This document shows positions 16,362 through 30,148 of a DNA stretch of 64,000 bases, piece by piece. How positions within the stretch are numbered: the stretch's first letter is position 1; each line of letters starts with the position of its first letter. This DNA is from Solimonas sp. (GTDB lineage: Bacteria; Pseudomonadota; Gammaproteobacteria; Nevskiales; Nevskiaceae), in assembly GCA_035476855.1 (NCBI GenBank), contig DATILC010000168.1:4644-68643 (forward strand). Reading direction: 5' to 3'. The position numbers and the translations under genes were made by a program. The notes under the pieces were generated by a model. The model worked only from the letters and a program-made list of their open reading frames with translations, was not told where the DNA came from and ran no database searches.

Positions 16362-17549
16362 TCAAGCGGCGTTTACCAGCGCCTTCATGCGCTCGACGCT
16401 GCCCTTCAGCACCTTGTCGGAGGTGGCAAAAGACAGGCGCAGGTGGCCCGGCGCGCCAAAGGCGGAACCCGGCACGACCGCGACCAGCGCCTTCTCCAGC
16501 ATCAGGTTCGACAGCTCCAGGTCGGTCTTGCAACCGAGCTTGGCCATCATGCCCTCGACGTTGGGGAACGCGTAGAACGTGCCGTCGCCGGCCAGGCAGT
16601 GCACGCCCGGCACCGTGTTGAGGTCGGCCACCAGCGCGTCGTGACGCGACTTGAAGGCCTTGACCATCTCGGTGACGCAGGTCTGGTCGCCGCTCAGCGC
16701 GACCTCGGCCGCCACCTGGGCGATCGAGTTCGGGTTGGAGGTCGACTGGCTCTGGATATCGGCCATCGCGGTGATCAGCTTGGCCGGGCCGCAGGCCCAG
16801 CCGATGCGCCAGCCGGTCATCGAATAGGTCTTCGACACGGCGTGGATGACCACGGTGCGGTCATACAGGTCCGGGCAGACGTTGATGATGTTGGCGTAGG
16901 GCTCGGCGGTCCACAGGATCTTCTCGTACATATCGTCCGTGGCGATGACGATCTGCGGGTGCTTGCGCAGCACCGCGCCCAGCGCGGCCAGCTCGGCGTG
17001 GCTGTAGGCCATGCCCGAGGGGTTGGACGGCGAGTTCAGCCAGATCATCTTGGTGCGCGGCGAGATCGCCCGCTCCAGCTGCTCGGGCGTGATCTTGAAG
17101 CGCGCCTCGGCGGTGGTCTCGATGAACACCGGGGTGGCGTCGGCCAGCAGCACCATGTCCGGGTAGGACACCCAGTACGGCGCCGGCACGATGACCTCGT
17201 CCGTGGCGTTCAGCAGCGCCTGGCACAGGTTGTAGCAGGACTGCTTGCCGCCGTTGGACACCAGGATCTGGTTCGGCTTGTACTCCAGCGCGTTGTCGCG
17301 CTGCATCTTGTCGATGATCGCCTTCTTCAGGCTCGGGGTGCCGCCGACCGGGGTGTACTTGGTGAAACCGCGGTTCAGCGCCTCGACCGCCGCGTCCTTG
17401 ATGTGCTGCGGGGTATCGAAGTCCGGCTCACCGGCTCCGAGCGAGAGTACATCCTTGCCCTGCGCCTTCAGCTCGGCGGCCTTGGCAGTGACGGCCAGGG
17501 TCGGCGAAGGCTTGATGCGGCTGTTGCGAAGGGCGAGCGAGATTTCCAC
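16362..17549 (-). CDS. PLP-dependent aminotransferase class I/II (aspartate aminotransferase-like)
   Basis: GAGEPDFDTP, NSPSNPSG, DDMY, SKTYSMTGWRIG (PLP Lys); GTG start. Confidence 0.93.
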   Translation of the reverse strand: MEISLALRNSRIKPSPTLAVTAKAAELKAQGKDVLSLGAGEPDFDTPQHIKDAAVEALNRGFTKYTPVGGTPSLKKAIIDKMQRDNALEYKPNQILVSNGGKQSCYNLCQALLNATDEVIVPAPYWVSYPDMVLLADATPVFIETTAEARFKITPEQLERAISPRTKMIWLNSPSNPSGMAYSHAELAALGAVLRKHPQIVIATDDMYEKILWTAEPYANIINVCPDLYDRTVVIHAVSKTYSMTGWRIGWACGPAKLITAMADIQSQSTSNPNSIAQVAAEVALSGDQTCVTEMVKAFKSRHDALVADLNTVPGVHCLAGDGTFYAFPNVEGMMAKLGCKTDLELSNLMLEKALVAVVPGSAFGAPGHLRLSFATSDKVLKGSVERMKALVNAA

Positions 17550-17665
17550 GGTGAGTCCTCTGTGGGGCTAAAAAAAAGCGCGCGGCATGATACCGGACCC
17601 CGCCGGCCCCGCCTACTGCACCCGGAGGAAGGGTTGAACCCCGGGTCCCCGCCCCAAGTTATGCT

Positions 17666-19731
<2,066 letters not shown>

Positions 19732-19735
<4 letters not shown>

Positions 19736-20145
19736 ACGCCCCCTCCCTGCCCGAGCGCGTGATCGTGTTCGACGGCGCCTGCAACTTCTGCAACAGCTGG
19801 ACCCGCTTCATCATCCGGCGCGACCCGCAGGCCCGCTTCCGCTTCGCCGCGATGCAAAGCACCGCCGGCAGCCTGCTGATGACCCGCAACGGCATCGATC
19901 CACAGAACCCCGCCACCTTCCTGTATGTCGAGAACGGTCGCGGCTATACCGACACCGACGCGATCTTTCGCGTCATCGCCCAGCTCACCGGTCCCTGGCC
20001 GTTGCTGCGAGTCCTGCGCGTGGTCCCACCCTTCATCCGTGATCCTCTGTACCGGTTCCTGGCGCGCAACCGCTACCGCTGGTTCGGCCGCCACGGGACC
20101 TGCCAGGTACCCGAGGCCTCGATCGCGGAACGGTTTATTCGCTGA
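19732..20145 (+). CDS. DCC1-like thiol-disulfide oxidoreductase (DUF393)
   Basis: VFDGACNFC (DxxCxxC), [13 protein letters not shown] overlap with the uvrB stop. Confidence 0.88.
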
Positions 20146-20150
20146 ACCTG

Positions 20151-20179
20151 TTGCCTCCGGCCCGCAAACAGGGTATCTT
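20151..20179 (+). promoter_or_regulatory. Probable sigma70 promoter of tRNA-Val
   Basis: TTGCCT-17 nt-TATCTT. Confidence 0.6.
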
Positions 20180-20201
20180 TCGCGCCCTTCAACGTACCCG
20201 T

Positions 20202-20278
20202 AGGCGCGTAGCTCAGCTGGTTAGAGCACTACCTTGACATGGTAGGGGTCGTTGGTTCGAGTCCAATCGCGCCTACCA
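20202..20278 (+). tRNA. tRNA-Val (GAC)
   Basis: 77 nt; acceptor AGGCGCG/CGCGCCT, anticodon arm CTACC-TTGACAT-GGTAG, GGTTCGAGTCC, encoded CCA. Confidence 0.97.
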
Positions 20279-20292
20279 ATATGCTGTACAGG

Positions 20293-20319
20293 AACCCCCG
20301 ACCCGTTCGGGGGTTTTCT
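20293..20319 (+). terminator. Terminator after tRNA-Val
   Basis: AACCCCCGA...TCGGGGGTT followed by TTCT. Confidence 0.65.
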
Positions 20320-20343
20320 CGTTCTGGGGTCTGGGTTTCGGTA

Positions 20344-20388
20344 CGCCATCCATGGCGCGACCGCGGTCAATCAATCTACCCCCTGCCC
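20344..20388. repeat. Truncated third copy of the structured repeat (5' part)
   Basis: CGCCATCCATGGCG-N16-ATCTACCCCCTGCCC has the same spacing as 404-448 (14/14 and 14/15 matches). Confidence 0.65.
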
Positions 20389-20421
20389 GAGATTCACCAG
20401 CGGTGGCCCGGGCCGCTCCGG

Positions 20422-21171
<750 letters not shown>

Positions 21172-21286
21172 GGGGCGGCACCTTAGCAGCGACCCCGTGC
21201 AGGAGGGAATGGCGAAACGCCATGCATGGGGGGAAAGCGCCTCAAACCCACCCGAAAAGGGGGTCCAGAAGTTTCTGCTCCCGGCA

Positions 21287-21453
21287 AATTCTGTTGAAAA
21301 ACTCCGCAGCTGCCCGCGCGAGTAGCGGAATCTGGGAAAAGTGCTCGCGACAGTTCTTTCAATGCCTGCTCGACCTGCTTTTTCCCCTTTGAAGCGACCT
21401 ACGCGGGCGATTTTTCCATTGCACGATCGGCACTGGAGTTTTTCAACAGAATT
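21287..21453. mobile_element. 167-bp MITE-like element with 19-bp perfect terminal inverted repeats
   Basis: AATTCTGTTGAAAAACTCC (21287-21305) / GGAGTTTTTCAACAGAATT (21435-21453); no transposase inside. Confidence 0.7.
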
Positions 21454-21763
21454 GGCACATGGCAGCCGTTGGATAAGTGAAGCGATGGGACTCACCTTCT
21501 CCGCCGGCACGGCGACAACCCGGTCCGTCGGGGAGCGAACGGCGTGATGTCGGGATTCGCAGGCTCGCCTAAGCCGCCTACTTTTGGCCCCCCATTGCCG
21601 GAAGCAGTCGGTCGCCAAGACCCGCGAATGCCTCTGATCGACCCGTTGCTGTCGATCGTTATCGCCGCCATCTGGGTTCAGAACCCGGTCAGGCACCCCG
21701 ATTCTGCACGCCATGATGTGGCTACATTCCCGGCGATGCCACACCGGATATCGGTCACCCGGG

Positions 21764-24094
21764 CTATGGACGCCGGGAGTTGCTCCGGTCACGACAGCCC
21801 CGGAATCTCTGCAGCAGTGGCTCGTATGCCGCGTCCTCTACGGGACCGACGCTGACCCACTCGATCGCCATGGCATCCAGATTCATCTCATCAGCCCTGA
21901 CGCCCCGCCCCATGCTCTGCACCAGGCGTTGCAACTGATACTCGCGACGCAAGGCTTGATCCTCCGGCGGCGTCGGCATGTCCGTCAGCATTTCCGCCCG
22001 GATGCAGAGCATCCTCAGAGTCGCCTCATTCGCCGCGAGATCTTCGGAGCGCTCACCGGCGAGCCCCTGCTTGAGGGTGTCGAGCCCGCTCCTGGGCCAT
22101 CGCTGGACGGAGGCCATGCAGGTGTCGGCAGCCTCCTTCAGGGTGTCAAGCAGCGAAGTGTCCAGACCTCGTGAGGCGGCGAGCCGATAGGCGCGCACAT
22201 GGTTGGCGGCCTCGAACAGATCGCTCCAGCCACGCTCGGCATCGCGCGCATGTTGGCGCGCAACCGACTTCCTGTAGCGATCCAGGCCCTGGTCAAGCCT
22301 GTTGCGAAGTTCGCGCGACTCCGCACGCGGAAACTCGCCGAGCGCCTCGAAAGCACTGCGCAATTCCGCCAACGCTCCGGCGCTCGCCAGCAGCTCAGCC
22401 CCCTCGAGCGCGGCGATCGTCTCGATCTGCTCGCACAAGGCAATGGCCTGCGTCTTGTTGTTCTCGAGCCCGGCCGTGTAGGCGGCAGACTCCTGCTCGC
22501 GCTTCTGGAACACGGCATCGCAGTGCTGGCGGAATTGCCCCCAGAGGCGCTGATCCACCTCACGCGGCACCGGGCCCACGGTCTTCCACTTCTGCTGGAG
22601 CTCCTTGGCCGCGTCGATAGCCTTGCGACCATCGTCGCTCGCGAGCAACTGTCCAGCACGCTCGATCAGCGACTCCTTCTGCTGCACGTTGCGGGCGTAC
22701 TCGGCATCCAGCCGGCCCTGCAGGCTCTCGGTGAGAGCCGAGAACGCCTTCTGCTGCTGCTTGCCGGCGCGATGATCCACGGGCAGGCAGTTGCGCCACT
22801 CCTGTTTCGTCTCGCGCAGCGCCTTGATGACGGCCTGCCAGTCAGGCTGCTCCCAGTTCTGTGCCGCCTCAAATGCAGTCAACCCGGCGAGCAAGGCATC
22901 GCGACGCTGCAGATTCTCCTGATGGACGAGGGCCTGGGCCGCAAAGTACTCGCTGCACGGCTGATACGCCTTCTTTCCTGCTTCCTGGAAGCGTTGCCCA
23001 TCGGCTTCGGCATTCTCGCCAGCGTCCTTGCCCAGGCTGCGCCATTCCTCCTGCAGGCTCTTGATCCTGTCGGCGAGCGCCACGGGATCGAGCGCCACGC
23101 CGATCAGCGACTCCATTTCCTCCATCAGCTCGGCGCGCTTCGGCGCCACCGAGAAAGTCTTCCAGTCGTTCAGCTCGTCGAGCTGCTTGTCGAGCTGTTG
23201 TATCTGGCTGATCAGGTTGGCCGGCAGCGGCGGAGCTCCCGCCAGTTTTTCCTCGATGGCCCGTCGCACCCCGGCCGCGCGGGAGCTGCTGCCGTCCTTC
23301 AGTGCAGCACGTGCCTTCCGGATCAACTCGTCGATCTGGCGCACGGCCTGCTGCTCAGCCTGCCGTTCTTCAGCCGACGCTCGGTTCTGCTCCTCACGCA
23401 CCGCCGCTTGCTCAGCTGCAGCCGCGGCGGATGCCTGCGCCTGCTGTTCGCGCAGGCGCCGCGCCTCCGCGGCTGCGTCGGCGGCAGCCTGCTCACGTGC
23501 TGCCTGGGCCGCCACCTCGCGCAAGTGCTCGGCAACGATCTCCCGTGAGCGGTCGATCCATTGCTGGACCCTGCTGCAAAGCTCTGGATCCGCCTGCGCC
23601 GCCACTGCTTTCCACTCACCCTCGAACTGATCCAGTCTCGGACTGTAGGTGGCGTCGTACGAGCGTTGGCTGTGGCGCTCGAGGGCTGCCGAGGCCGCAA
23701 CGATCTCGGCGCGCAGCTGCTCGAGCTTGCGGGTCTGCTCCAGCAGGACGTCGCGCTTGGCCGTCAGGATCTTGTAGACACTCTTGTCATTGCCACCGCG
23801 GACATCGCGGATCAGCTGCCGCAGCACGTCCGGATCTTCGATCGCGGCGGCGGCCGCCTGGCGAACCTTGGTCGATGCCCCCCCAACGACCAGCCGGGCC
23901 ACCGCCTGGACGTCCCCGGCATTCATGGCCGACTGCAAGGCTTCCTCCTCGGCAGCAGCAGCCAGCGCGCGATCAGCGGCGCCCGGCTTGGGAAGAGCCT
24001 TCTCGGTCTTTTTGGACGGCACCGGTTGAGGCACTGACGCCGGAGACGGCGAAAGCGATGGCAGTTTGCGAAACAGGCGCGAGAATAACGACAT
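21764..24094 (-). CDS. DUF349-like repeat coiled-coil protein (~776 aa)
   Basis: Repeated helical units (LQEEWRSLG, KQEWRNC, LQQKWKTVGPVPREVDQRLWGQFRQHCDAVF); start taken at MSLFSRLF. Confidence 0.7.
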   Translation of the reverse strand: MSLFSRLFRKLPSLSPSPASVPQPVPSKKTEKALPKPGAADRALAAAAEEEALQSAMNAGDVQAVARLVVGGASTKVRQAAAAAIEDPDVLRQLIRDVRGGNDKSVYKILTAKRDVLLEQTRKLEQLRAEIVAASAALERHSQRSYDATYSPRLDQFEGEWKAVAAQADPELCSRVQQWIDRSREIVAEHLREVAAQAAREQAAADAAAEARRLREQQAQASAAAAAEQAAVREEQNRASAEERQAEQQAVRQIDELIRKARAALKDGSSSRAAGVRRAIEEKLAGAPPLPANLISQIQQLDKQLDELNDWKTFSVAPKRAELMEEMESLIGVALDPVALADRIKSLQEEWRSLGKDAGENAEADGQRFQEAGKKAYQPCSEYFAAQALVHQENLQRRDALLAGLTAFEAAQNWEQPDWQAVIKALRETKQEWRNCLPVDHRAGKQQQKAFSALTESLQGRLDAEYARNVQQKESLIERAGQLLASDDGRKAIDAAKELQQKWKTVGPVPREVDQRLWGQFRQHCDAVFQKREQESAAYTAGLENNKTQAIALCEQIETIAALEGAELLASAGALAELRSAFEALGEFPRAESRELRNRLDQGLDRYRKSVARQHARDAERGWSDLFEAANHVRAYRLAASRGLDTSLLDTLKEAADTCMASVQRWPRSGLDTLKQGLAGERSEDLAANEATLRMLCIRAEMLTDMPTPPEDQALRREYQLQRLVQSMGRGVRADEMNLDAMAIEWVSVGPVEDAAYEPLLQRFRGCRDRSNSRRP

Positions 24095-24310
24095 TGTTGA
24101 CCTGCACAGCACATGGGACGGCCGCACAGTCTACCTGCGCTGGAAGGCCCGTAGCATCTGCTTTTGCCTGCGCTTTGACGTCACCCGGATTTGAGGGCAC
24201 CAGTCGCCACAGGCCGGTTGGTGCCAGTAGCCTACGTTCTCGTTCGTTAATTCGCGGGATCACCCCCCCTCTTGTAAGCTTCCTACACTTGGGTAAGCGA
24301 TGGTGAAGCC

Positions 24311-26218
24311 GTGATTGAATTGCCAATAGAGTTCGAGTTGCCTGCGCCATGGACGGGGAAAAAGAACTTCAAAGCATCAGCCGTCGCGCCTGTCAATTTC
24401 CTTGTCGGCCCCAATGGGAGCGGAAAGTCGCGCTTCGCCAAGGAGCTTAAGAGTCGGCTCCCGACTAGGGGCAATGGTGCGAGATTGCTGAATACGGACA
24501 GACTCGAAGGGATGGAGAGCACCAAGGCTTTCCGAAATAGCTTCGGCGACCGTTTTGGAAATGGCTTCGACAAGACACACTTCGAAATTTTTAAGAATGC
24601 AGGCACCCAAGAAGGCTCGGGTCTCGACGCTTTCATACTTCTCGAGGAGCGGCTAGACCTAAGAATTCAGGTCGAAGCCACGCTGAGCAATCTCTTCAAT
24701 CGAAGGATCTCACTCGAGTGGGATTCGGGACGGCTGAAGGCGATGGCTGCAATTGGAACGAGTGGCGCGTCATACCGGCTCGATCGGGACGAGTGTCATG
24801 GCATCAAGGAGCTGCTGGTCTTACTCACGCACCTTTACAACAACGAGCATCCGTACCTCATCATCGACGAGCCGGAGCTCAACCTTCATCCTCAATACCA
24901 AGCCTTCTTGATGCAGGAGGTCAGGCGTCTAGCCGGGAACCCGGCCACCGACCCGAGCAAGAAGCTCATCTTCTTGATTACACACTCGCCCTTCATTCTC
25001 GACTTCGCCACTGTCGAAGATGTGAAGGCAGTCATCTCATTCGACCTGAAGCACGAAGTCCCAAGGCAGCTATTGGACCTCAGTGCAGAGGAGTCTGGTC
25101 GTCTTGCGCGGCTGGTTCCGCGATTGAACGTGCACCACAAACAGCTCTTCTTCTCGGACAATCCTGTCTTCGTCGAGGGAATCCTCGATGCCCAGATGGT
25201 TGCGACTGTGCAGTCCGCACGCGGAGTTTCGATGGCCGCAGCAGGAAGTTGCGTCATCGACGCCGGCGGCAACGAGGAAGTCAATCAGTATCTGGATTTG
25301 TGCTCCCACCTGGGGAAGAGAGCCTTCTTTCTGTACGACTTGGACAGCTTGTTCCGGGGCAATCTCAGGGCGCGTATTAGAGGCGATGCAGGCGTCAAGG
25401 CGGCGCTTACGGCGTCAGGGTTGGGGGCTGACTTTGGAACCTACTGTGGCGCCCTCGAGAGCAAACTCACCGTAATAGCGGATCAGCTATTAGGAATCGC
25501 TATACCTCCTGCAGCGTTGTCGGAGCTGATCGCATTTCTTACTTCTTTGGGCATACGGAAGGAGTGGACTCCCGACAAGCATCCGAAGGCACGCGTAGCA
25601 ATCCTCACCGCATTGAGCCGGTTCCGAGCGGATTTGGTCGCGGCAACGTCTGCGGGCGACGTCGATGATATCGAAGGGCGCTTAAGAAGGATTTGCGACG
25701 TTCTGCGCGGGCAGAATGTACTCCTCCTGCCGGGTGGGACCCTTGAGAGATACCTGCCGAGCTACACCGGAAATCCTTACAAAATTGATGACGAGGCGAA
25801 GTCGGCTGCCGTCGTCGCCGAGATCACCTGGCTCGCTGGGCAACATGAACAAGCTGCACTGAAAGCGCGCTATGGCGATCTGTATGAATCCATCGAGGCG
25901 CTGCCCTCAAAACCGCCGGTCGATATGGACAGCGTATTGATCGAGTATCTCAGCGCATTCATTCATGCCCTACAGGGTGCGGTAGTTGCTAATTCGGACT
26001 GGAAGCACGAAGAGCTCGGTAAGTATCTTGAGATCAAACAACCCGCCTCAGCGAAGGTCTTTTCCGTAGCATCTCTGGTCAGAAACGCACCCGATAAATT
26101 CCGCTGTGCCGTTGAGGTGATGCCTATGTTGGGCCAGGGGCTCCGACACGTCATTGTCACGGAGGCGACCAACGCGGGAATGCGCAACTTCTTGATCGGT
26201 ACCGGCAAGCCAGCGTAG
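24311..26218 (+). CDS. OLD-family-like ABC/AAA ATPase + TOPRIM protein
   Basis: GPNGSGKS Walker A, IIDEPELNLHP Walker B/D-loop, ITHS switch, VFVEG and YDLD TOPRIM acidic motifs; visibly lower GC than the flanks. Confidence 0.75.
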   Translation: MIELPIEFELPAPWTGKKNFKASAVAPVNFLVGPNGSGKSRFAKELKSRLPTRGNGARLLNTDRLEGMESTKAFRNSFGDRFGNGFDKTHFEIFKNAGTQEGSGLDAFILLEERLDLRIQVEATLSNLFNRRISLEWDSGRLKAMAAIGTSGASYRLDRDECHGIKELLVLLTHLYNNEHPYLIIDEPELNLHPQYQAFLMQEVRRLAGNPATDPSKKLIFLITHSPFILDFATVEDVKAVISFDLKHEVPRQLLDLSAEESGRLARLVPRLNVHHKQLFFSDNPVFVEGILDAQMVATVQSARGVSMAAAGSCVIDAGGNEEVNQYLDLCSHLGKRAFFLYDLDSLFRGNLRARIRGDAGVKAALTASGLGADFGTYCGALESKLTVIADQLLGIAIPPAALSELIAFLTSLGIRKEWTPDKHPKARVAILTALSRFRADLVAATSAGDVDDIEGRLRRICDVLRGQNVLLLPGGTLERYLPSYTGNPYKIDDEAKSAAVVAEITWLAGQHEQAALKARYGDLYESIEALPSKPPVDMDSVLIEYLSAFIHALQGAVVANSDWKHEELGKYLEIKQPASAKVFSVASLVRNAPDKFRCAVEVMPMLGQGLRHVIVTEATNAGMRNFLIGTGKPA

Positions 26219-26408
26219 TCAACGTCACGCGCAAAGCACGGCCGATACCGCGAGGTCGCCACAATGAATCCCTCTAGCGCGGGCACGCCACTACACCAGC
26301 TTGAATGACCTCTTCGGGCCACGAGAGCAAGATGTCACCACCGTCAGCTTTGGGCTGATAGCACTCGGCAATCAAATCCAGCGTTGGGGTACACGGACGC
26401 ACCCCATC

Positions 26409-27188
26409 CTACCGGCCGCCCTTCCGCACAGCGACAGCCGCCGCATGCTTCTGCATGCTTTGCACCGTCTCCTCGCTCTCGAAAATGGCGAGCCCGCGAT
26501 TGCGTTGTTCCGCCGTTTCGTCCAGCACGCGCTGGACATAGGGCGCGATCAGTTGGGCTTTGACATGCGCGTAGCCTGCCTGCGGCCTGGCGCCCAGGCT
26601 TGCGGCACGCGTGACCGCGGCCGCCAGCAGCTGGTCTGCATCCGCGTGGCTGGCGTGAAAGCTGCCATTGCGCAGGCCTGCACGCCAATCGAACAGTTCG
26701 GCGCTCTGGATCGCGTAGGCCAGGTCCCGTTGCAGCGCCCAGCGTCCGATTTCGACGGCGATGGACGGAAAGCCGGCACCAAACTGCAGTTCGTTGATGC
26801 CGTACTGGCCCGCCCCTTCGACGACATGGCGGAAATCGCAGGCCACGGCGACGAAGAAGCCGGCGGCAATCGCGTGGCCGGTGACCGCGGCCACAGTCGG
26901 CTTGGGGCAGCGCCAGACATCGAGGAAGCACTGCTGCATTGCGTCGGAGAAAGCCTGCGTCTGGCCAGCGTCCCTGGCGGCGAACAAGGCCTCGAAGTCC
27001 AGACCCGCGCTGAAGACGGCGCCGGCGCCACGGATGACGATGGCACGGACGGCACCGTCCGCTGCTGCCGCGTTCATCGCCTGCGACAAGGCCTGCATCA
27101 GTTCGACATTGAACGCATGCATGCGGGGACGATTGAGGGTGAGCAGGCGCACGCCGCCGGCAAGGTTCTCGGTCAGCAGCACGGACAT
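26409..27188 (-). CDS. Enoyl-CoA hydratase/isomerase (crotonase) family protein
   Basis: LTLNRP, FSAGLD, AAVTGHAIAAG, GINE; start at MSVLL. Confidence 0.88.
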   Translation of the reverse strand: MSVLLTENLAGGVRLLTLNRPRMHAFNVELMQALSQAMNAAAADGAVRAIVIRGAGAVFSAGLDFEALFAARDAGQTQAFSDAMQQCFLDVWRCPKPTVAAVTGHAIAAGFFVAVACDFRHVVEGAGQYGINELQFGAGFPSIAVEIGRWALQRDLAYAIQSAELFDWRAGLRNGSFHASHADADQLLAAAVTRAASLGARPQAGYAHVKAQLIAPYVQRVLDETAEQRNRGLAIFESEETVQSMQKHAAAVAVRKGGR

Positions 27189-27222
27189 GCAGGGCTCTCG
27201 ATCAGGCTTGTTTGACCAGGCT

Positions 27223-28386
27223 TCAGGCCGCGGACCGCTCGGCCAGCCAGTCCGCGCTCTGCGCCCACACCGCGCTTTGCGCCTTGCTGCCAAGGATCAC
27301 GCCCATGTGTCCGCCGGGCGCGACGTGGAACTCCTTGTCGGTGGAAGCAACGATCTCGACGAGCTTCTGCGCGATCGGCGGCGGCACCAGGATGTCCTTC
27401 TCGCCGGCGAACACCAGCAGCGACGAGCGGATCCGATCCAGCTCCGCGAGCCGGTCGCCGAGTTCGATCCTGCCGCTGGCCAGCTTGTTGTCGACGGCAA
27501 CCTTCACCAGCATGTCCTGGATCACCCCGGCCGGGTACATCAGCATGTGGTTGAGATAATCCGCCGTGGTGGAGTGCGACTCGACGAAGGCGCGGTCCGA
27601 CATGCCGGCGACCAGGTCCCAGTAGGTGGTGACGCTGCCGACCGGATCGGTCAGCTTGAACGCCAGCGTGGTGAACCAGGCCGGCATCTGCATCTTCAGC
27701 GGATCCAGCATGTCCATGCGCAGGTTGCTGTACCTGCGGATCAGTTGGGCCGGTCCGTTCAGTGCCTGGGCCGCACCGGCGACGATGCCGCCGCCGCGCA
27801 TGTCGATCGGGCTGGCGACGGTGACGATGTTGCGAACGTGCGGATCGTGATTGAGGCCCTGGTACAGCAGGCTCAGCAGGCCGCCCATGCACCAGCCCAT
27901 CAGGGCGACATCCTGGCTGCCGGAGTGCTTGCGGATTTTCGCCAGCGCGGTGCCGAGCATCACGTCGGCATAGTCGCGCAGGCGCAGATGGGCGTGTTCC
28001 CGCGTCGGCCGGCCCCAGTCGACCAGGTAGGTCTTGAAGCCGCGCGCCGCCATGTAGCGCACCAGGCTGCGCTGCGGCATCAGGTCGAAAGTCTCGGTGG
28101 TCACGCCCAGCGGCGGCACCAGCACCAGCGGCACGGCGTGCTGCTCGCGCTGGATCGGCATGCGGCTGCCATCCACCAGTTCGATGTCGTTCTCCTCCGG
28201 CAGGCCGTAGTAGCGCACCGCCATCGGGTCACCGTCGTGCACCAGCTCGAACCAGGTGCGGCCGGACTTGACCAGCTTGTCGCGGCGGAACATCCAGTCG
28301 AAGCCGTTGCCCAGAACCTGTGCCGCACGCTGGTTCAGCGCCAGCCCCTGCCCGCGCAGCTTGCCGATCAGTTCGTTGTTGCTCAT
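27223..28386 (-). CDS. PhaC class III-like alpha/beta hydrolase
   Basis: PLVLVPPL, YLVDWG, GWCMGG (Cys nucleophile), ASPID, AGEKDILVP, GGHMG. Confidence 0.8.
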   Translation of the reverse strand: MSNNELIGKLRGQGLALNQRAAQVLGNGFDWMFRRDKLVKSGRTWFELVHDGDPMAVRYYGLPEENDIELVDGSRMPIQREQHAVPLVLVPPLGVTTETFDLMPQRSLVRYMAARGFKTYLVDWGRPTREHAHLRLRDYADVMLGTALAKIRKHSGSQDVALMGWCMGGLLSLLYQGLNHDPHVRNIVTVASPIDMRGGGIVAGAAQALNGPAQLIRRYSNLRMDMLDPLKMQMPAWFTTLAFKLTDPVGSVTTYWDLVAGMSDRAFVESHSTTADYLNHMLMYPAGVIQDMLVKVAVDNKLASGRIELGDRLAELDRIRSSLLVFAGEKDILVPPPIAQKLVEIVASTDKEFHVAPGGHMGVILGSKAQSAVWAQSADWLAERSAA

Positions 28387-29768
28387 GGCAGGGCTCCGGC
28401 AGCCAGCGATTCTTCGAGGTCGTCCAGCGCCTGGCCGGTGTACACCGCCATGCGCTGCAGGCTCGGCAAGGTCTCGCGCGCACCGCAGTAGCCGATGTTC
28501 AGCGTATCGGCATAGTGCAGGCAGGTGATGCTCAGCGCCGTACCCTGGGTCAGCGGGAACATCGGGTACAGCGCCTCCAGCCGCGCGCCTTCGCAGTACA
28601 GCGGCTGTTCGGGGCCGGGCTGGTCGGCGATGACCAGGTTGCACATCGCCGGCGCCAGGCGGCCCATGCCGCTGAGCTGGCCCAGCAGATACGGTGCCGC
28701 AGTCGCCAGGGTGTACAGCGGCAGCAGCGTCTCCGGTACCGCGTCGAGGTGTTCGCGCGAAGCCTGGGTGGAGCGCTGGATCGCGGCGAGCCGCTTGTGC
28801 GGATCGGCAAACTGCGTGCCCAGGCTGACGTAGCCGATCGAGCCGTAGGGCGTCTCCGCATCCGGGTTGCCCTTGTGCAGGCCCGGCACGGCGGCGACGA
28901 AGGAGCGCTCCGGCAGCGCGTTGTACTCCTTGAAGAAGCGCCGCAGCGCGGTGCCGCAGAGATACAGCACCAGGTCATCCAGCTCTGCCCCGCAGGCGGC
29001 GGCGATGCGCTGCAGCCGTGCCCGCGGATATTGCTGGGTGGCGAAGCGCCGCTGCGCATCGATACGCACGTTCATCACCGAATGCGGCGCGCTGTACGGC
29101 GCACTCAGGTCGCCACCGGGCGTCGAGCCGCCGCGCAGCAGGCGCCACATGGCGCTGCCGAATGCCTGCGCCGAGGCGCCGGCCTCGCCGCGGCGGACGA
29201 AGCTGCGCAGGCTCTCCTGCAGCTGCGCGCCGGCCTGCCCGCGCTCGGACGGTGGCGCCGCCAGCGTCCACGGCGCCGGCGTGTTGCGGCGCTTCGGATC
29301 GGGCGACAGCCAGGCGGTCAGCATGCGCAGGAAGCCGGTGACGTCGGTCAGCGCGTGGTGCATCTTGACGTACAGCGCGAAGCGGCCGTCGTGCAGGCCC
29401 TCGATCAGATGACATTCCCAGGGCGGGCGGCTCAGGTCCAGGGGGTGGCTGTGCAGGCGCGACACCAGGATGCCCAGCTCGCGCTCGCCGCCGGGCGCCG
29501 GCAGCGCGGACTGGCGTACGTGAAAGTCCATGTCCGCCTGCGAATCTTCCTCCCAGCAGGGTGCTCGCAAGCGGCGGCGGTTGAGCGTCCGGTTCCACGG
29601 CGCGGCGGTGTCGGGCGCGGCGCGCAGGCTGTCGGCCAGGCGCACCACATGGTCGGCGCGCGCGCCCTTGGGCAGCTGGAAGATCAGCAGCGCGCCGAGG
29701 TGCATCGGCGTCGCCACCGAGTCCAGCATCAGCCAGCTGCGCTCCAACGGATTCAGGGGATGGCTCAT
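28383..29768 (-). CDS. Wax ester synthase/DGAT family O-acyltransferase
   Basis: PMHLG, PLDLSRPPWECHLIEGL, KMHHALTD, CNLVIADQPGP; stop overlaps the next ATG. Confidence 0.88.
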   Translation of the reverse strand: MSHPLNPLERSWLMLDSVATPMHLGALLIFQLPKGARADHVVRLADSLRAAPDTAAPWNRTLNRRRLRAPCWEEDSQADMDFHVRQSALPAPGGERELGILVSRLHSHPLDLSRPPWECHLIEGLHDGRFALYVKMHHALTDVTGFLRMLTAWLSPDPKRRNTPAPWTLAAPPSERGQAGAQLQESLRSFVRRGEAGASAQAFGSAMWRLLRGGSTPGGDLSAPYSAPHSVMNVRIDAQRRFATQQYPRARLQRIAAACGAELDDLVLYLCGTALRRFFKEYNALPERSFVAAVPGLHKGNPDAETPYGSIGYVSLGTQFADPHKRLAAIQRSTQASREHLDAVPETLLPLYTLATAAPYLLGQLSGMGRLAPAMCNLVIADQPGPEQPLYCEGARLEALYPMFPLTQGTALSITCLHYADTLNIGYCGARETLPSLQRMAVYTGQALDDLEESLAAGALP

Positions 29769-30148
29769 GCGGCTTTACTCATGGGGCAGACCTCTTGGCG
29801 GGCTCCGGCATTCTGCACCTCCGCGGGAATCATCGCCGCCCCCTGGGCCATGCCGGCAGCCGCAGCGGGTCGGGCCCGGCAGTCCGGATTCCGTCCGCTC
29901 AGATGCCATCGGATGAACCGACCTGCCCGCGGCATCGATCGTTAGGCGTGATCGATTTCGGTTAGCGCACCATTTCTGGCACCTCTGCGCCAGTCCTGAC
30001 CGACGCAATTCAGTCCGCAATCGCTCCTTCCTGCGATCCGGGGCCTCAGAACTTGCGCGTTCTGGGGGACAGCCGACGCCGGAAAAAGCCACCGGTCGAG
30101 ATTCCGGCAGCAAGCCGGAGAGCGGATCGATGACCCGCCCTCCGGTAT

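What the first reader, a model, noticed from the sequence alone, without database searches (positions are those of the whole stretch)
24311..26218. Stand-alone OLD-type ATPase-TOPRIM gene with an unassigned C-terminal third: candidate anti-phage system
Seen: Walker A/B, H-switch and TOPRIM VEG/DxD motifs in the first ~350 aa, then ~280 aa I cannot assign; GC is clearly lower than the flanks (about 53% in one 60-nt sample counted). No UvrD helicase, retron RT or other partner is adjacent. Established: OLD proteins act in P2 Old exclusion, Gabija (GajA) and some retron systems. Inference: a single-gene defence nuclease with a possible sensor domain.
Basis: partly seen in the sequence, partly recalled or inferred. 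Interest (0 to 1): 0.62.

Follow-up and report, generated by a model that had tools for sequence, protein, structure and literature searches.

The report
Stand-alone OLD-type ATPase-TOPRIM nuclease gene
A soil bacterium picked up a single foreign gene for an OLD-family ATPase-nuclease; proteins of this type usually defend against phages, and this one belongs to an unstudied subfamily with an extra tail domain that has no recognisable fold.

Summary
ORF 24311-26218 (+, 635 aa) encodes an ABC-type ATPase followed by an OLD-like TOPRIM domain. Its GC is 55.6% against 66% for the window, and no helicase, reverse transcriptase or ncRNA lies beside it.

The "unassigned 280 aa" splits in two. Residues 346-483 still belong to TOPRIM: a ~120-aa helical insert, then strand 4 with the invariant metal-B Glu479. 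Only residues 484-635 are truly unassigned. They fold confidently (pLDDT 88.8) but match nothing in Pfam, PDB or BFVD.

The gene is a ~2.05-kb single-gene insertion. It is absent from all 40 relatives searched, and assemblies from two soil samples confirm it.

It belongs to a ~620-630-aa family scattered over more than ten phyla and some plasmids. No neighbour gene recurs in more than 3 of 36 loci. Some copies sit in DISARM-like, restriction-modification, prophage or toxin-antitoxin settings.

All ATPase and two-metal TOPRIM residues are invariant in 83 divergent members.

By context it is Class 1 OLD. By architecture and sequence it is not a canonical Class 1, 2, 3 or 4 protein.

Most likely it is a self-sufficient anti-phage or anti-mobile-element nuclease. 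That role, its substrate (DNA or tRNA) and its trigger are inferred, not shown.

The parts
24245..24310 (+). 5' end of the foreign segment. The left junction lies at about 24232-24250, followed by a short untranslated leader.
   Evidence: Homology to the closest congener (G004) ends at 24231 and to four other congeners at 24111-24149. Clear homology to the nearest homologous cassette (L017-L020) starts at 24291, with patchy similarity from about 24250.
24311..26218 (+). Gene for the OLD-family ATPase-TOPRIM protein: 635 aa, GTG start, TAG stop.
   Evidence: GC 55.6%, GC3 65%. One contig in run X1 spans 23000-27600 with no differences.
24311..25120 (+). ABC-type ATPase domain (aa 1-270) with a short helical insert at aa 62-130.
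   Evidence: Pfam AAA_21 and AAA_15. AF2 secondary structure. K39, D186, E187 and H225 are conserved in 95-100% of 83 divergent family members.
24407..24430 (+). Walker A motif GPNGSGKS (aa 33-40).
24854..24877 (+). Walker B / D-loop YLIIDEPE (aa 182-189; D186, E187).
24980..24994 (+). H-loop THSPF (aa 224-228; H225).
25148..25345 (+). TOPRIM core strands 1-3 (aa 280-345). Carries E289 and D293 (E-x3-D) and D343-x-D345.
   Evidence: Pfam PF20469. HMMER alignment to Ts OLD 6p74. Equivalence to Ts E377/D381/D431/D433 from PMC7049728. All four are invariant in 83 members.
25346..25711 (+). Helical insert inside TOPRIM (aa 346-467), between strand 3 and strand 4.
   Evidence: AF2 helices 344-466 at pLDDT about 66-94. 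No Pfam hit. 47% mean identity among close homologues, against 77% for the TOPRIM core.
25712..25759 (+). TOPRIM strand 4 and the metal-B motif GGTLERY (aa 468-483; T477, E479).
   Evidence: AF2 strand 470-472. G476 and E479 are invariant in 83 members. Corresponds by motif to Ts S478-x-E480.
25760..26215 (+). C-terminal alpha/beta module of unknown fold (aa 484-635): five helices, then a four-stranded sheet. Contains K497 (98% conserved), a candidate transition-state residue.
   Evidence: Isolated model has pLDDT 88.8. No match in PDB (best E 0.41), BFVD (best E 0.07), Pfam or a PDB profile search. K497 conservation.
26219..26322 (+). 3' non-coding tail that travels with the gene; right end of the shared cassette.
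   Evidence: 81% nucleotide identity to L017-L020 runs from 24291 to 26319 and then stops. It has no significant secondary structure (z = 0.51).

Best explanation
The gene encodes a self-sufficient OLD-family enzyme. An ABC-type ATPase acts as the sensor or switch, fused to a two-metal TOPRIM nuclease as the effector.

The gene arrived by horizontal transfer as a ~2.05-kb single-gene cassette. It most likely protects its host, or the mobile element that carries it, against phages or other invading DNA.

Proposed mechanism (inferred): the protein sits in an auto-inhibited oligomer. A phage-derived cue (a protein, an aberrant DNA structure or a replication intermediate) is read by the ATPase together with the fast-evolving TOPRIM insert and C-terminal module. 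ATP binding or hydrolysis then re-arranges the protein and exposes the active site, formed by E289, D293, D343, D345, E479 and K497. The nuclease then nicks or cuts phage or host DNA, or cleaves tRNA as P2 OLD does. Either outcome stops phage replication.

Shown here: domain composition, an intact and strictly conserved catalytic set, foreign origin, and stand-alone organisation.

Inferred only: the defence role, the substrate, the trigger, and the role of the C-terminal module.
For: Domain and family:
- Pfam AAA_21, AAA_15 and OLD-like_TOPRIM all score above their cut-offs.
- The best PADLOC hits are GajA, Old, ATPase-Toprim_I-B and AriA.
- The best PDB match by sequence is Ts OLD 6p74.
- The best PDB matches by fold are Ts OLD, GajA and the retron Eco8 effector, all at probability 1.00.

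Catalytic set:
- The residues equivalent to Ts OLD E377, D381, D431, D433 and E480 (PMC7049728) are E289, D293, D343, D345 and E479.
- With D186, E187 and H225 they are 100% conserved in 83 representatives that share only 26-49% identity. K39 is 95% and K497 98% conserved.

Foreign origin:
- GC 55.6% and GC3 65%, against host GC3 of 72-94%.
- Absent from 5 congeners and 35 further relatives.
- The junctions are defined and are present in assemblies of two samples.

Stand-alone organisation:
- In 36-37 loci from more than ten phyla, no neighbour family occurs in more than 3 loci.

Defence or mobile-element context of homologues:
- Between a SNF2 helicase and a DUF1156 methylase, a DISARM-like arrangement.
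- Next to a DpnII-type restriction enzyme and a CHAT-TPR protein.
- Beside an IS3 element, umuDC and DarT.
- Between the recombinase and the repressor module of a prophage-like region.
- On small Acinetobacter plasmids among toxin-antitoxin pairs, and on Synechocystis pSYSM.

Precedent:
- Stand-alone OLD proteins P2 OLD, Vc OLD and YbjD give anti-phage phenotypes (PMC12445682, PMC12392090, PMC13261556).
Against: - There is no experimental evidence for this family.
- No curated defence model covers the whole protein. The best PADLOC hit is 60 bits over residues 169-330. NCBIfam retron_eff_Eco8 scores 41.8 against a cut-off of 250.
- Many homologues sit among ordinary metabolic genes rather than in defence islands.
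- No close homologue was found in 50,697 phage records.
- One OLD class, the archaeal Cran1, has a housekeeping role (PMC12796447).
- In E. coli YbjD the TOPRIM domain was dispensable for the phenotype (PMC13261556), so domain presence does not fix the mechanism.
- No promoter-like site was found upstream, and expression is untested.
Confidence: 0.65

Rival explanations
1. It is a mobile-element weapon or addiction module rather than a host immune gene. The nuclease would serve plasmids, prophages or islands in competition with other elements, or in post-segregational killing. The chromosomal copy here would be a stranded passenger.
For: Homologues lie on small mobilizable plasmids among toxin-antitoxin pairs, on pSYSM, at a prophage-like recombinase/repressor junction and next to an IS3 element. 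The founding OLD gene belongs to prophage P2.
Against: In this window there is no integrase, transposase or plasmid gene within about 10 kb. Most of the 36 loci are chromosomal with ordinary neighbours. This reading overlaps mechanistically with the defence reading and is hard to separate from it.
Confidence: 0.15
2. It is one component of a multi-gene system whose partner is encoded elsewhere in the genome, or is a host factor. Alone it would be inert.
For: OLD Classes 2 to 4 all need partners: GajB, RT plus ncRNA, or AriA/AriB. In 3 loci the homologue is embedded in a DISARM-like operon.
Against: No neighbour recurs in more than 3 of 36 loci. The cassette shared with the nearest homologue is the ORF plus about 100 nt. 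Such wide horizontal spread of a lone gene argues that it works by itself.
Confidence: 0.08
3. It has a housekeeping DNA-metabolism role in repair, replication or chromosome handling, as proposed for archaeal Cran1.
For: Cran1 is an OLD-family nickase needed for cell-cycle progression (PMC12796447). The ATPase resembles Rad50/SMC-type ATPases.
Against: The gene is absent from all 5 congeners and 35 other relatives. Its composition is foreign, its distribution across phyla is patchy, and no synteny is conserved.
Confidence: 0.05
4. It is a non-functional, decaying passenger gene.
For: No promoter-like site was found upstream. Expression data are lacking; only DNA runs hold the sequence.
Against: The frame is full length with no stops, the protein aligns end to end with its homologues, and every invariant catalytic residue of the family is retained. 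It is 84% identical to the nearest homologue over 100% of its length.
Confidence: 0.03

Closest known systems
Class 1 OLD nucleases (P2 OLD, Thermus scotoductus OLD 6P74, Vibrio cholerae Vc OLD, E. coli YbjD/OldB)
   Same: [quoted passage not shown] Ts OLD is the best PDB hit by sequence (E 1.5e-4) and by fold (E 1.9e-9).
   Different: Identity to P2 OLD is only 22% over residues 183-347. The ATPase insert is short: Walker B sits at residue 186, against 273-296 in Ts and P2 OLD. A ~120-aa helical insert lies inside TOPRIM, whereas Class 1 is described as lacking such an insert (PMC12796447, PMC7049728). There is an extra ~150-aa C-terminal alpha/beta module with no counterpart. The PADLOC Old model matches only residues 181-353.
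Class 2 OLD / Gabija GajA
   Same: It gives the best PADLOC hit (GajA PDLC00096, 60 bits). GajA structures rank 2nd and 3rd in the fold search. [quoted passage not shown] Here K497 lies on the first helix after strand 4.
   Different: No gajB (UvrD-like helicase) lies adjacent in the window or in any of 36 homologous loci. The HMM match is partial. The C-terminal module found no GajA or BpOLD match in Foldseek.
Class 3 OLD (retron Eco8 effector) and Class 4 (PARIS AriA/AriB)
   Same: Both share the ATPase-TOPRIM logic. The Eco8 effector ranks 4th and 5th in the fold search, and there are weak HMM hits.
   Different: There is no reverse transcriptase and no msr/msd RNA nearby. NF038234 scores 41.8 against a cut-off of 250. 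The protein is fused rather than split as in PARIS, and the AriAB fusion model scores only about 31 bits.
Uncharacterised bacterial OLD clades (U1-U11 of Yang et al. 2025, PMC12796447)
   Same: That paper reports at least 11 well-supported OLD clades with no characterised member, five of them bacterial and horizontally scattered. This family fits that description.
   Different: Membership in a particular U clade could not be checked. The accessions of named homologues were not found in the paper's supplements.

Membership tests
OLD family nucleases (ABC ATPase + TOPRIM) | N-terminal ABC-type ATPase with Walker A, Walker B and H-loop | tested here: met
   Pfam AAA_21 at 50.7 bits and AAA_15 at 43.3 bits, both above cut-off. 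Motifs at residues 33-40, 184-189 and 224-228. K39, D186, E187 and H225 are conserved in 95-100% of 83 representatives.
OLD family nucleases (ABC ATPase + TOPRIM) | C-terminal TOPRIM with a conserved Glu and a DxD motif (metal A) | tested here: met
   PF20469 scores 38.5 bits against 23.2. E289 and D343-x-D345 align to the Ts OLD and P2 OLD motifs and are invariant.
OLD family nucleases (ABC ATPase + TOPRIM) | Metal-B ligands (E-x3-D and S/T-x-E) and a basic transition-state residue | tested here: inconclusive
   D293 and E479 are invariant. T477 is variable (35%). K497 is 98% conserved and R480 is variable. The assignment rests on motif position relative to PMC7049728, not on a structural superposition.
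OLD family nucleases (ABC ATPase + TOPRIM) | Overall fold similar to solved OLD proteins | tested here: met
   Foldseek top hits are 6p74, 8sm3 and 9lpa at probability 1.00. TM-scores are low (0.28-0.35) because domain arrangement and the inserts differ.
OLD family nucleases (ABC ATPase + TOPRIM) | ATPase activity and metal-dependent nuclease activity | not testable with these tools
   Needs purified protein.
Class 1 OLD | Stand-alone gene in variable neighbourhoods | tested here: met
   The window neighbours are unrelated and on the opposite strand. Across 36-37 homologous loci no neighbour family recurs in more than 3.
Class 1 OLD | Class 1 architecture: large dimerisation insert in the ATPase; TOPRIM without helical insert or extra C-terminal domain; about 520-590 aa | tested here: not met
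   The AF2 model shows a ~120-aa helical insert between TOPRIM strands 3 and 4 and a further ~150-aa C-terminal module. The ATPase insert is only about 70 aa. The Class 1 description comes from PMC7049728 and PMC12796447.
Class 1 OLD | Sequence membership (PADLOC Old model; similarity to P2 OLD) | tested here: inconclusive
   PDLC02358 scores 52.8 bits but covers only residues 181-353 of 635. P2 OLD is 22% identical at E 3e-4, and hhalign gives probability 74%.
Gabija (Class 2 OLD, GajA + GajB) | Adjacent UvrD/PcrA-like helicase gene gajB | tested here: not met
   None lies within about 5 kb, and none recurs among 129 neighbour ORFs of the homologues.
Retron type I-B effector (Class 3 OLD) | Adjacent reverse transcriptase and msr/msd ncRNA; NF038234 above its cut-off | tested here: not met
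   No RT domain was found and no ncRNA. NF038234 scores 41.8 bits against 250.
PARIS (Class 4 OLD, AriA + AriB) | Separate ATPase and TOPRIM genes, or an AriAB fusion that matches the AriAB model | tested here: not met
   It is a single fused ORF. AriA models match only residues 161-231, and the AriAB model has E 2.3e-8 over residues 179-291.
Anti-phage defence system (functional class) | Protection against phage upon expression | not testable with these tools
   The evidence is contextual only.

The most novel reading that the evidence does not exclude
This ~620-630-aa family would be a distinct, uncharacterised class of single-protein OLD immunity. In it, the fast-evolving helical TOPRIM insert and the orphan C-terminal alpha/beta module together form a built-in sensor or gate. 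That gate would replace the partner proteins of Gabija, retrons and PARIS: it would recognise a phage cue directly and unlock the TOPRIM site.
Probability: 0.3. Interest if true: 0.6.

Novelty: new variant of a known kind. Interest (0 to 1): 0.4.

Why it matters
Stand-alone OLD proteins are the least understood branch of a very common immune protein family. Only P2 OLD, Vc OLD and YbjD have been tested, and they differ in both substrate and trigger.

This subfamily is compact, widespread across phyla and apparently self-sufficient. It also carries an extra domain of unknown fold. That makes it a tractable single-gene model for asking how an ABC ATPase senses infection and gates a TOPRIM nuclease.

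If it turns out to be ordinary, the value is still an annotation: more than 900 proteins now labelled "AAA family ATPase" can be read as OLD-type nucleases with defined catalytic residues.

Tried and rejected
- **tRNA-Val island.** tRNA-Val lies at 20202-20278, but the SLT and DUF349 genes between it and the OLD gene are native and syntenic in congeners. There is no integrase.
- **Flanking repeats.** No direct or inverted repeats mark the insertion; only chance-level 10-18-nt matches were found.
- **Integron cassette.** The conserved 3' 100 nt shows no attC-like hairpin (DNA fold z = 0.51), and the R''/R' boxes are not complementary.
- **Empty site in relatives.** All five congeners lose synteny right after the DUF349 start. 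Each carries different native genes there, and the right-hand genes are scattered elsewhere. A left junction could be defined, but no clean empty site.
- **Retron, Gabija, PARIS.** Partner genes and ncRNA are absent.
- **Assigning the C-terminal 150 aa.** Pfam at E up to 10, a PDB profile search, Foldseek against PDB and against BFVD all gave nothing significant.
- **Phage homologues.** Only one weak partial hit.
- **Published OLD trees.** The accessions were not in the Cran1 supplements, and no supplements are held for the Vc OLD paper.
- **Promoter scan.** None found.
- **Earlier scan notes.** Nothing bears on this gene.
Full report
**1. What is there**

The ORF at 24311-26218 (+) is real: GTG start, 635 aa, TAG stop. 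Pfam finds the C-terminal half of an ABC-type ATPase and an OLD-like TOPRIM domain:
- AAA_21 at 50.7 bits and AAA_15 at 43.3 bits.
- PF20469 at 38.5 bits against a cut-off of 23.2, covering residues 280-345.

- Walker A GPNGSGKS at 33-40.
- Walker B IIDEPE at 184-189.
- H-loop THSPF at 224-228.
- FVEGILD at 287-293.
- YDLDS at 342-346.

The gene has GC 55.6% and GC3 65%. The six flanking genes have GC 63-71% and GC3 72-94%, and the window as a whole is 66.5%.

The neighbours are as follows:
- UvrB at 17666-19735 (+).
- tRNA-Val at 20202-20278.
- An SLT transglycosylase (-).
- A DUF349 protein at 21764-24127 (-), divergent from the OLD gene.
- An enoyl-CoA hydratase at 26409-27293 (-), convergent with it.
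- An alpha/beta hydrolase and a WS/DGAT acyltransferase.

There is no UvrD-like helicase, no reverse transcriptase and no integrase. Rfam finds only the tRNA in 20000-30000. The gene is monocistronic by orientation.

**2. It is a recent single-gene acquisition**

The protein has no counterpart in 5 species of the same genus or in 35 further relatives.

DNA homology to the closest congener runs through the DUF349 gene and its upstream region and stops at window 24231. In four other congeners it stops at 24111-24149.

The nearest homologue is P0003, 84% identical in protein. Its loci lie in other soil and metagenome assemblies and share 81% nucleotide identity with the window only over 24291-26319. 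That is the ORF, about 20 nt upstream and about 100 nt downstream. The transferred unit is therefore about 2.05 kb and holds one gene.

No flanking repeats, attC-like hairpin or recombinase accompany it.

To the right, gene order differs in every congener. The gene thus sits at a synteny break, and no clean empty site can be shown.

The insertion is not an assembly artefact. One Logan contig of run X1 covers 23000-27600 with no differences. In a second soil sample (X2), separate contigs cross both junctions at similar depth.

**3. Anatomy of the protein**

A 47-sequence alignment of homologues at 56-84% identity is conserved end to end. It gave an AlphaFold2 model with mean pLDDT 84.9 and pTM 0.77.

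*ATPase domain.* Residues 1-270 form the ABC ATPase. A short, less confident helical insert lies at 62-130, at the position where Ts OLD carries its dimerisation domain (PMC7049728).

*TOPRIM domain.*
- Residues 284-342 give TOPRIM strands 1-3 with their helices.
- A block of helices follows at 344-466, and then a fourth strand at 470-472.
- The motif GGTLERY (475-481) sits after that fourth strand.

*Catalytic residues.* Schiltz et al. defined the Ts OLD active site as E377/D431/D433 (metal A), D381/S478/E480 (metal B) and R487. By alignment and motif position, the equivalents here are E289, D343, D345, D293, T477 and E479.

I aligned 83 full-length cluster representatives that are only 26-49% identical to the query. 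Conservation was as follows:
- 100% conserved: D186, E187, H225, E289, D293, D343, D345, G476 and E479.
- K39 is 95% conserved.
- K497 is 98% conserved. It lies on the first helix after strand 4 and is my candidate for the basic transition-state residue. This is an inference.

*C-terminal module.* Only residues 484-635 remain unassigned: five helices followed by a four-stranded sheet.
- Folded alone from 26 homologous fragments, this piece is confident (pLDDT 88.8).
- It matches nothing: Foldseek against PDB has best E 0.41 and against BFVD best E 0.07.
- Pfam gives no match at E up to 10, and a PDB profile search gives none either.

*Rates of change.*
- Among close homologues, the TOPRIM insert and the C-terminal module are 43-47% identical. 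The ATPase and TOPRIM cores are 67-77% identical.
- Across the wide family the figures are 16-21% against 38%.
- No residue after E504 is conserved at 85% or more.

**4. Relation to known OLD classes**

The full-length model's best PDB matches are all at probability 1.00:
- Ts OLD (6p74, E 1.9e-9).
- Gabija GajA (8sm3, 8u7i).
- The retron Eco8 effector (9lpa, 9lp9).

By sequence the family is about equally far from every class.
- GajA scores 60 bits, Old 53, retron ATPase-Toprim_I-B 53 and AriA 52. All cover only about residues 165-350.
- NCBIfam retron_eff_Eco8 scores 41.8 against a cut-off of 250.
- P2 OLD, fetched from NC_001895, is 22% identical over residues 183-347 (E 3e-4; hhalign probability 74%).

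The classes are defined mainly by context (PMC10568477, PMC12392090). Class 1 is stand-alone, Class 2 has gajB, Class 3 has RT and ncRNA, and Class 4 has the ATPase and TOPRIM split as AriA/AriB.

By context this gene is Class 1. By architecture it is not the canonical Class 1. Ts OLD lacks a TOPRIM insert and a C-terminal domain, and Yang et al. describe Class 1 as the exception that lacks the TOPRIM helical insert. Those authors also report 11 uncharacterised OLD clades. This family plausibly belongs to one of them, but I could not verify that.

**5. Family distribution and neighbourhoods**

- The word-indexed search found 947 homologues. The best 120 are 56-100% identical and nearly all 617-659 aa (three shorter or cut).
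- The exhaustive search of 50%-identity representatives found 1376 hits at E up to 1e-3 and 172 at E up to 1e-30. The full-length hits are mostly about 600-650 aa.
- Named carriers include Ramlibacter, Pandoraea, Stutzerimonas, Vreelandella/Halomonas and Rhodoferax, plus Nitrospirota and Deltaproteobacteria MAGs.
- A scan of one genome per species returned about 35 full-length copies. They came from Burkholderiales, Cyanobacteria, Chloroflexota, Acidobacteriota, Gemmatimonadota, Alphaproteobacteria, Myxococcota, Bacteroidota, Campylobacterota, Verrucomicrobiota and Firmicutes.
- More distant members (26-28% identity, full length) are cargo on Synechocystis pSYSM and on small mobilizable Acinetobacter plasmids among toxin-antitoxin pairs.

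I clustered all ORFs within 4 kb of the gene in 37 loci. I then scanned the two nearest ORFs on each side in 36 loci (129 proteins) against PADLOC and Pfam. No family recurs in more than 3 loci. The gene has no conserved partner.

Several neighbourhoods are immune or mobile:
- A SNF2 helicase with NOV_C upstream and a DUF1156 methylase downstream, DISARM-like, in Gemmatimonadota and Dehalococcoidia.
- A DpnII-type restriction enzyme and a CHAT-TPR protein.
- An IS3 element, umuDC and DarT.
- A serine recombinase and an M78/HTH repressor pair at a prophage-like edge.
- RES toxins, an ApaLI-type enzyme, methylases, and a HEPN/Toprim_N protein.

Others are plain metabolic islets, as in this window.

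**6. Interpretation**

*Shown:*
- It is an intact OLD-family ATPase-TOPRIM protein.
- It is under strong purifying selection on both active sites.
- It was horizontally acquired as a lone gene.
- It is a member of a widely scattered family with no obligatory partner.

*Inferred:* it acts as a self-contained anti-phage or anti-mobile-element nuclease. Published stand-alone OLDs give the range of possibilities.
- P2 OLD is an auto-inhibited tetramer. Aberrant DNA or phage origin hairpins destabilise it, and it then cleaves tRNA anticodon stems (PMC12445682; bioRxiv 10.64898/2026.07.10.737580).
- Vc OLD nicks DNA and blocks phage replication independently of RecBCD (PMC12392090).
- YbjD needs its ATPase but not its TOPRIM domain (PMC13261556).

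I cannot tell which substrate applies here. The variable TOPRIM insert and the orphan C-terminal module are the obvious candidates for trigger recognition or auto-inhibition, but nothing here tests that.

*Rivals:*
- A mobile-element competition or addiction role, which overlaps with the defence reading.
- Dependence on an unlinked partner.
- A Cran1-like housekeeping role, which the gene's absence from relatives and its foreign composition contradict.
- Decay, which the intact conserved sequence contradicts.

**7. Verdict**

The finding is a new variant of a known kind: a stand-alone OLD nuclease of an uncharacterised subfamily with a TOPRIM insert and a C-terminal domain of unknown fold. Interest is moderate. 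OLD diversity is already recognised, but this is a clean single-gene system with defined residues to mutate.

Noticed in passing
L035:17-11093, L038:2244-11090 (also L037): In Gemmatimonadota and Dehalococcoidia MAGs, the OLD homologue sits between an HTH-SNF2 helicase with NOV_C (about 1200 aa) and a DUF1156 adenine methylase (about 1060 aa) that starts 33 nt after its stop. This is a DISARM-like operon with an OLD gene embedded in it.
   Followed up: partly
L029:4670-5911: In a Burkholderiales MAG, the gene directly upstream of the OLD homologue encodes a HEPN/Toprim_N (PF18871) protein. This is another defence-associated family, so two TOPRIM-type systems lie side by side.
   Followed up: no
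window 24128-24250 and 26320-26410; congener loci L012-L016: The point just upstream of the DUF349 gene start is a synteny break in all five congeners. Each species has different native, high-GC3 genes there. The window's right-hand genes (enoyl-CoA hydratase, hydrolase, WS/DGAT) map to scattered places in the relatives.
   Followed up: partly
L012:10120-10305 (G004), with matches on many G000 contigs: A stretch of about 50-180 nt downstream of the DUF349 gene in congener G004 matches dozens of places in the window's own genome at 81-96% identity. It looks like a REP/MITE-like dispersed repeat family.
   Followed up: no
L021:7545-7895: In Stutzerimonas frequens, a 116-aa ORF with no Pfam match lies about 100 nt upstream of the OLD homologue on the same strand. 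It is absent from the window and from the other loci.
   Followed up: partly
window 17468-19648 (-), 26761-28491 (+), 28320-29945 (+): Long ORFs of 540-730 aa lie antisense to real genes (uvrB, hydrolase, WS/DGAT). They have no Pfam hits and are typical spurious open frames of high-GC DNA.
   Followed up: partly
L018:7495-7929, L019:8567-9001: The nearest homologue's locus carries a DarT (DNA ADP-ribosyltransferase toxin) gene and umuDC within 3 kb, next to an IS3 element. The setting looks like a small mobile defence or toxin islet.
   Followed up: no
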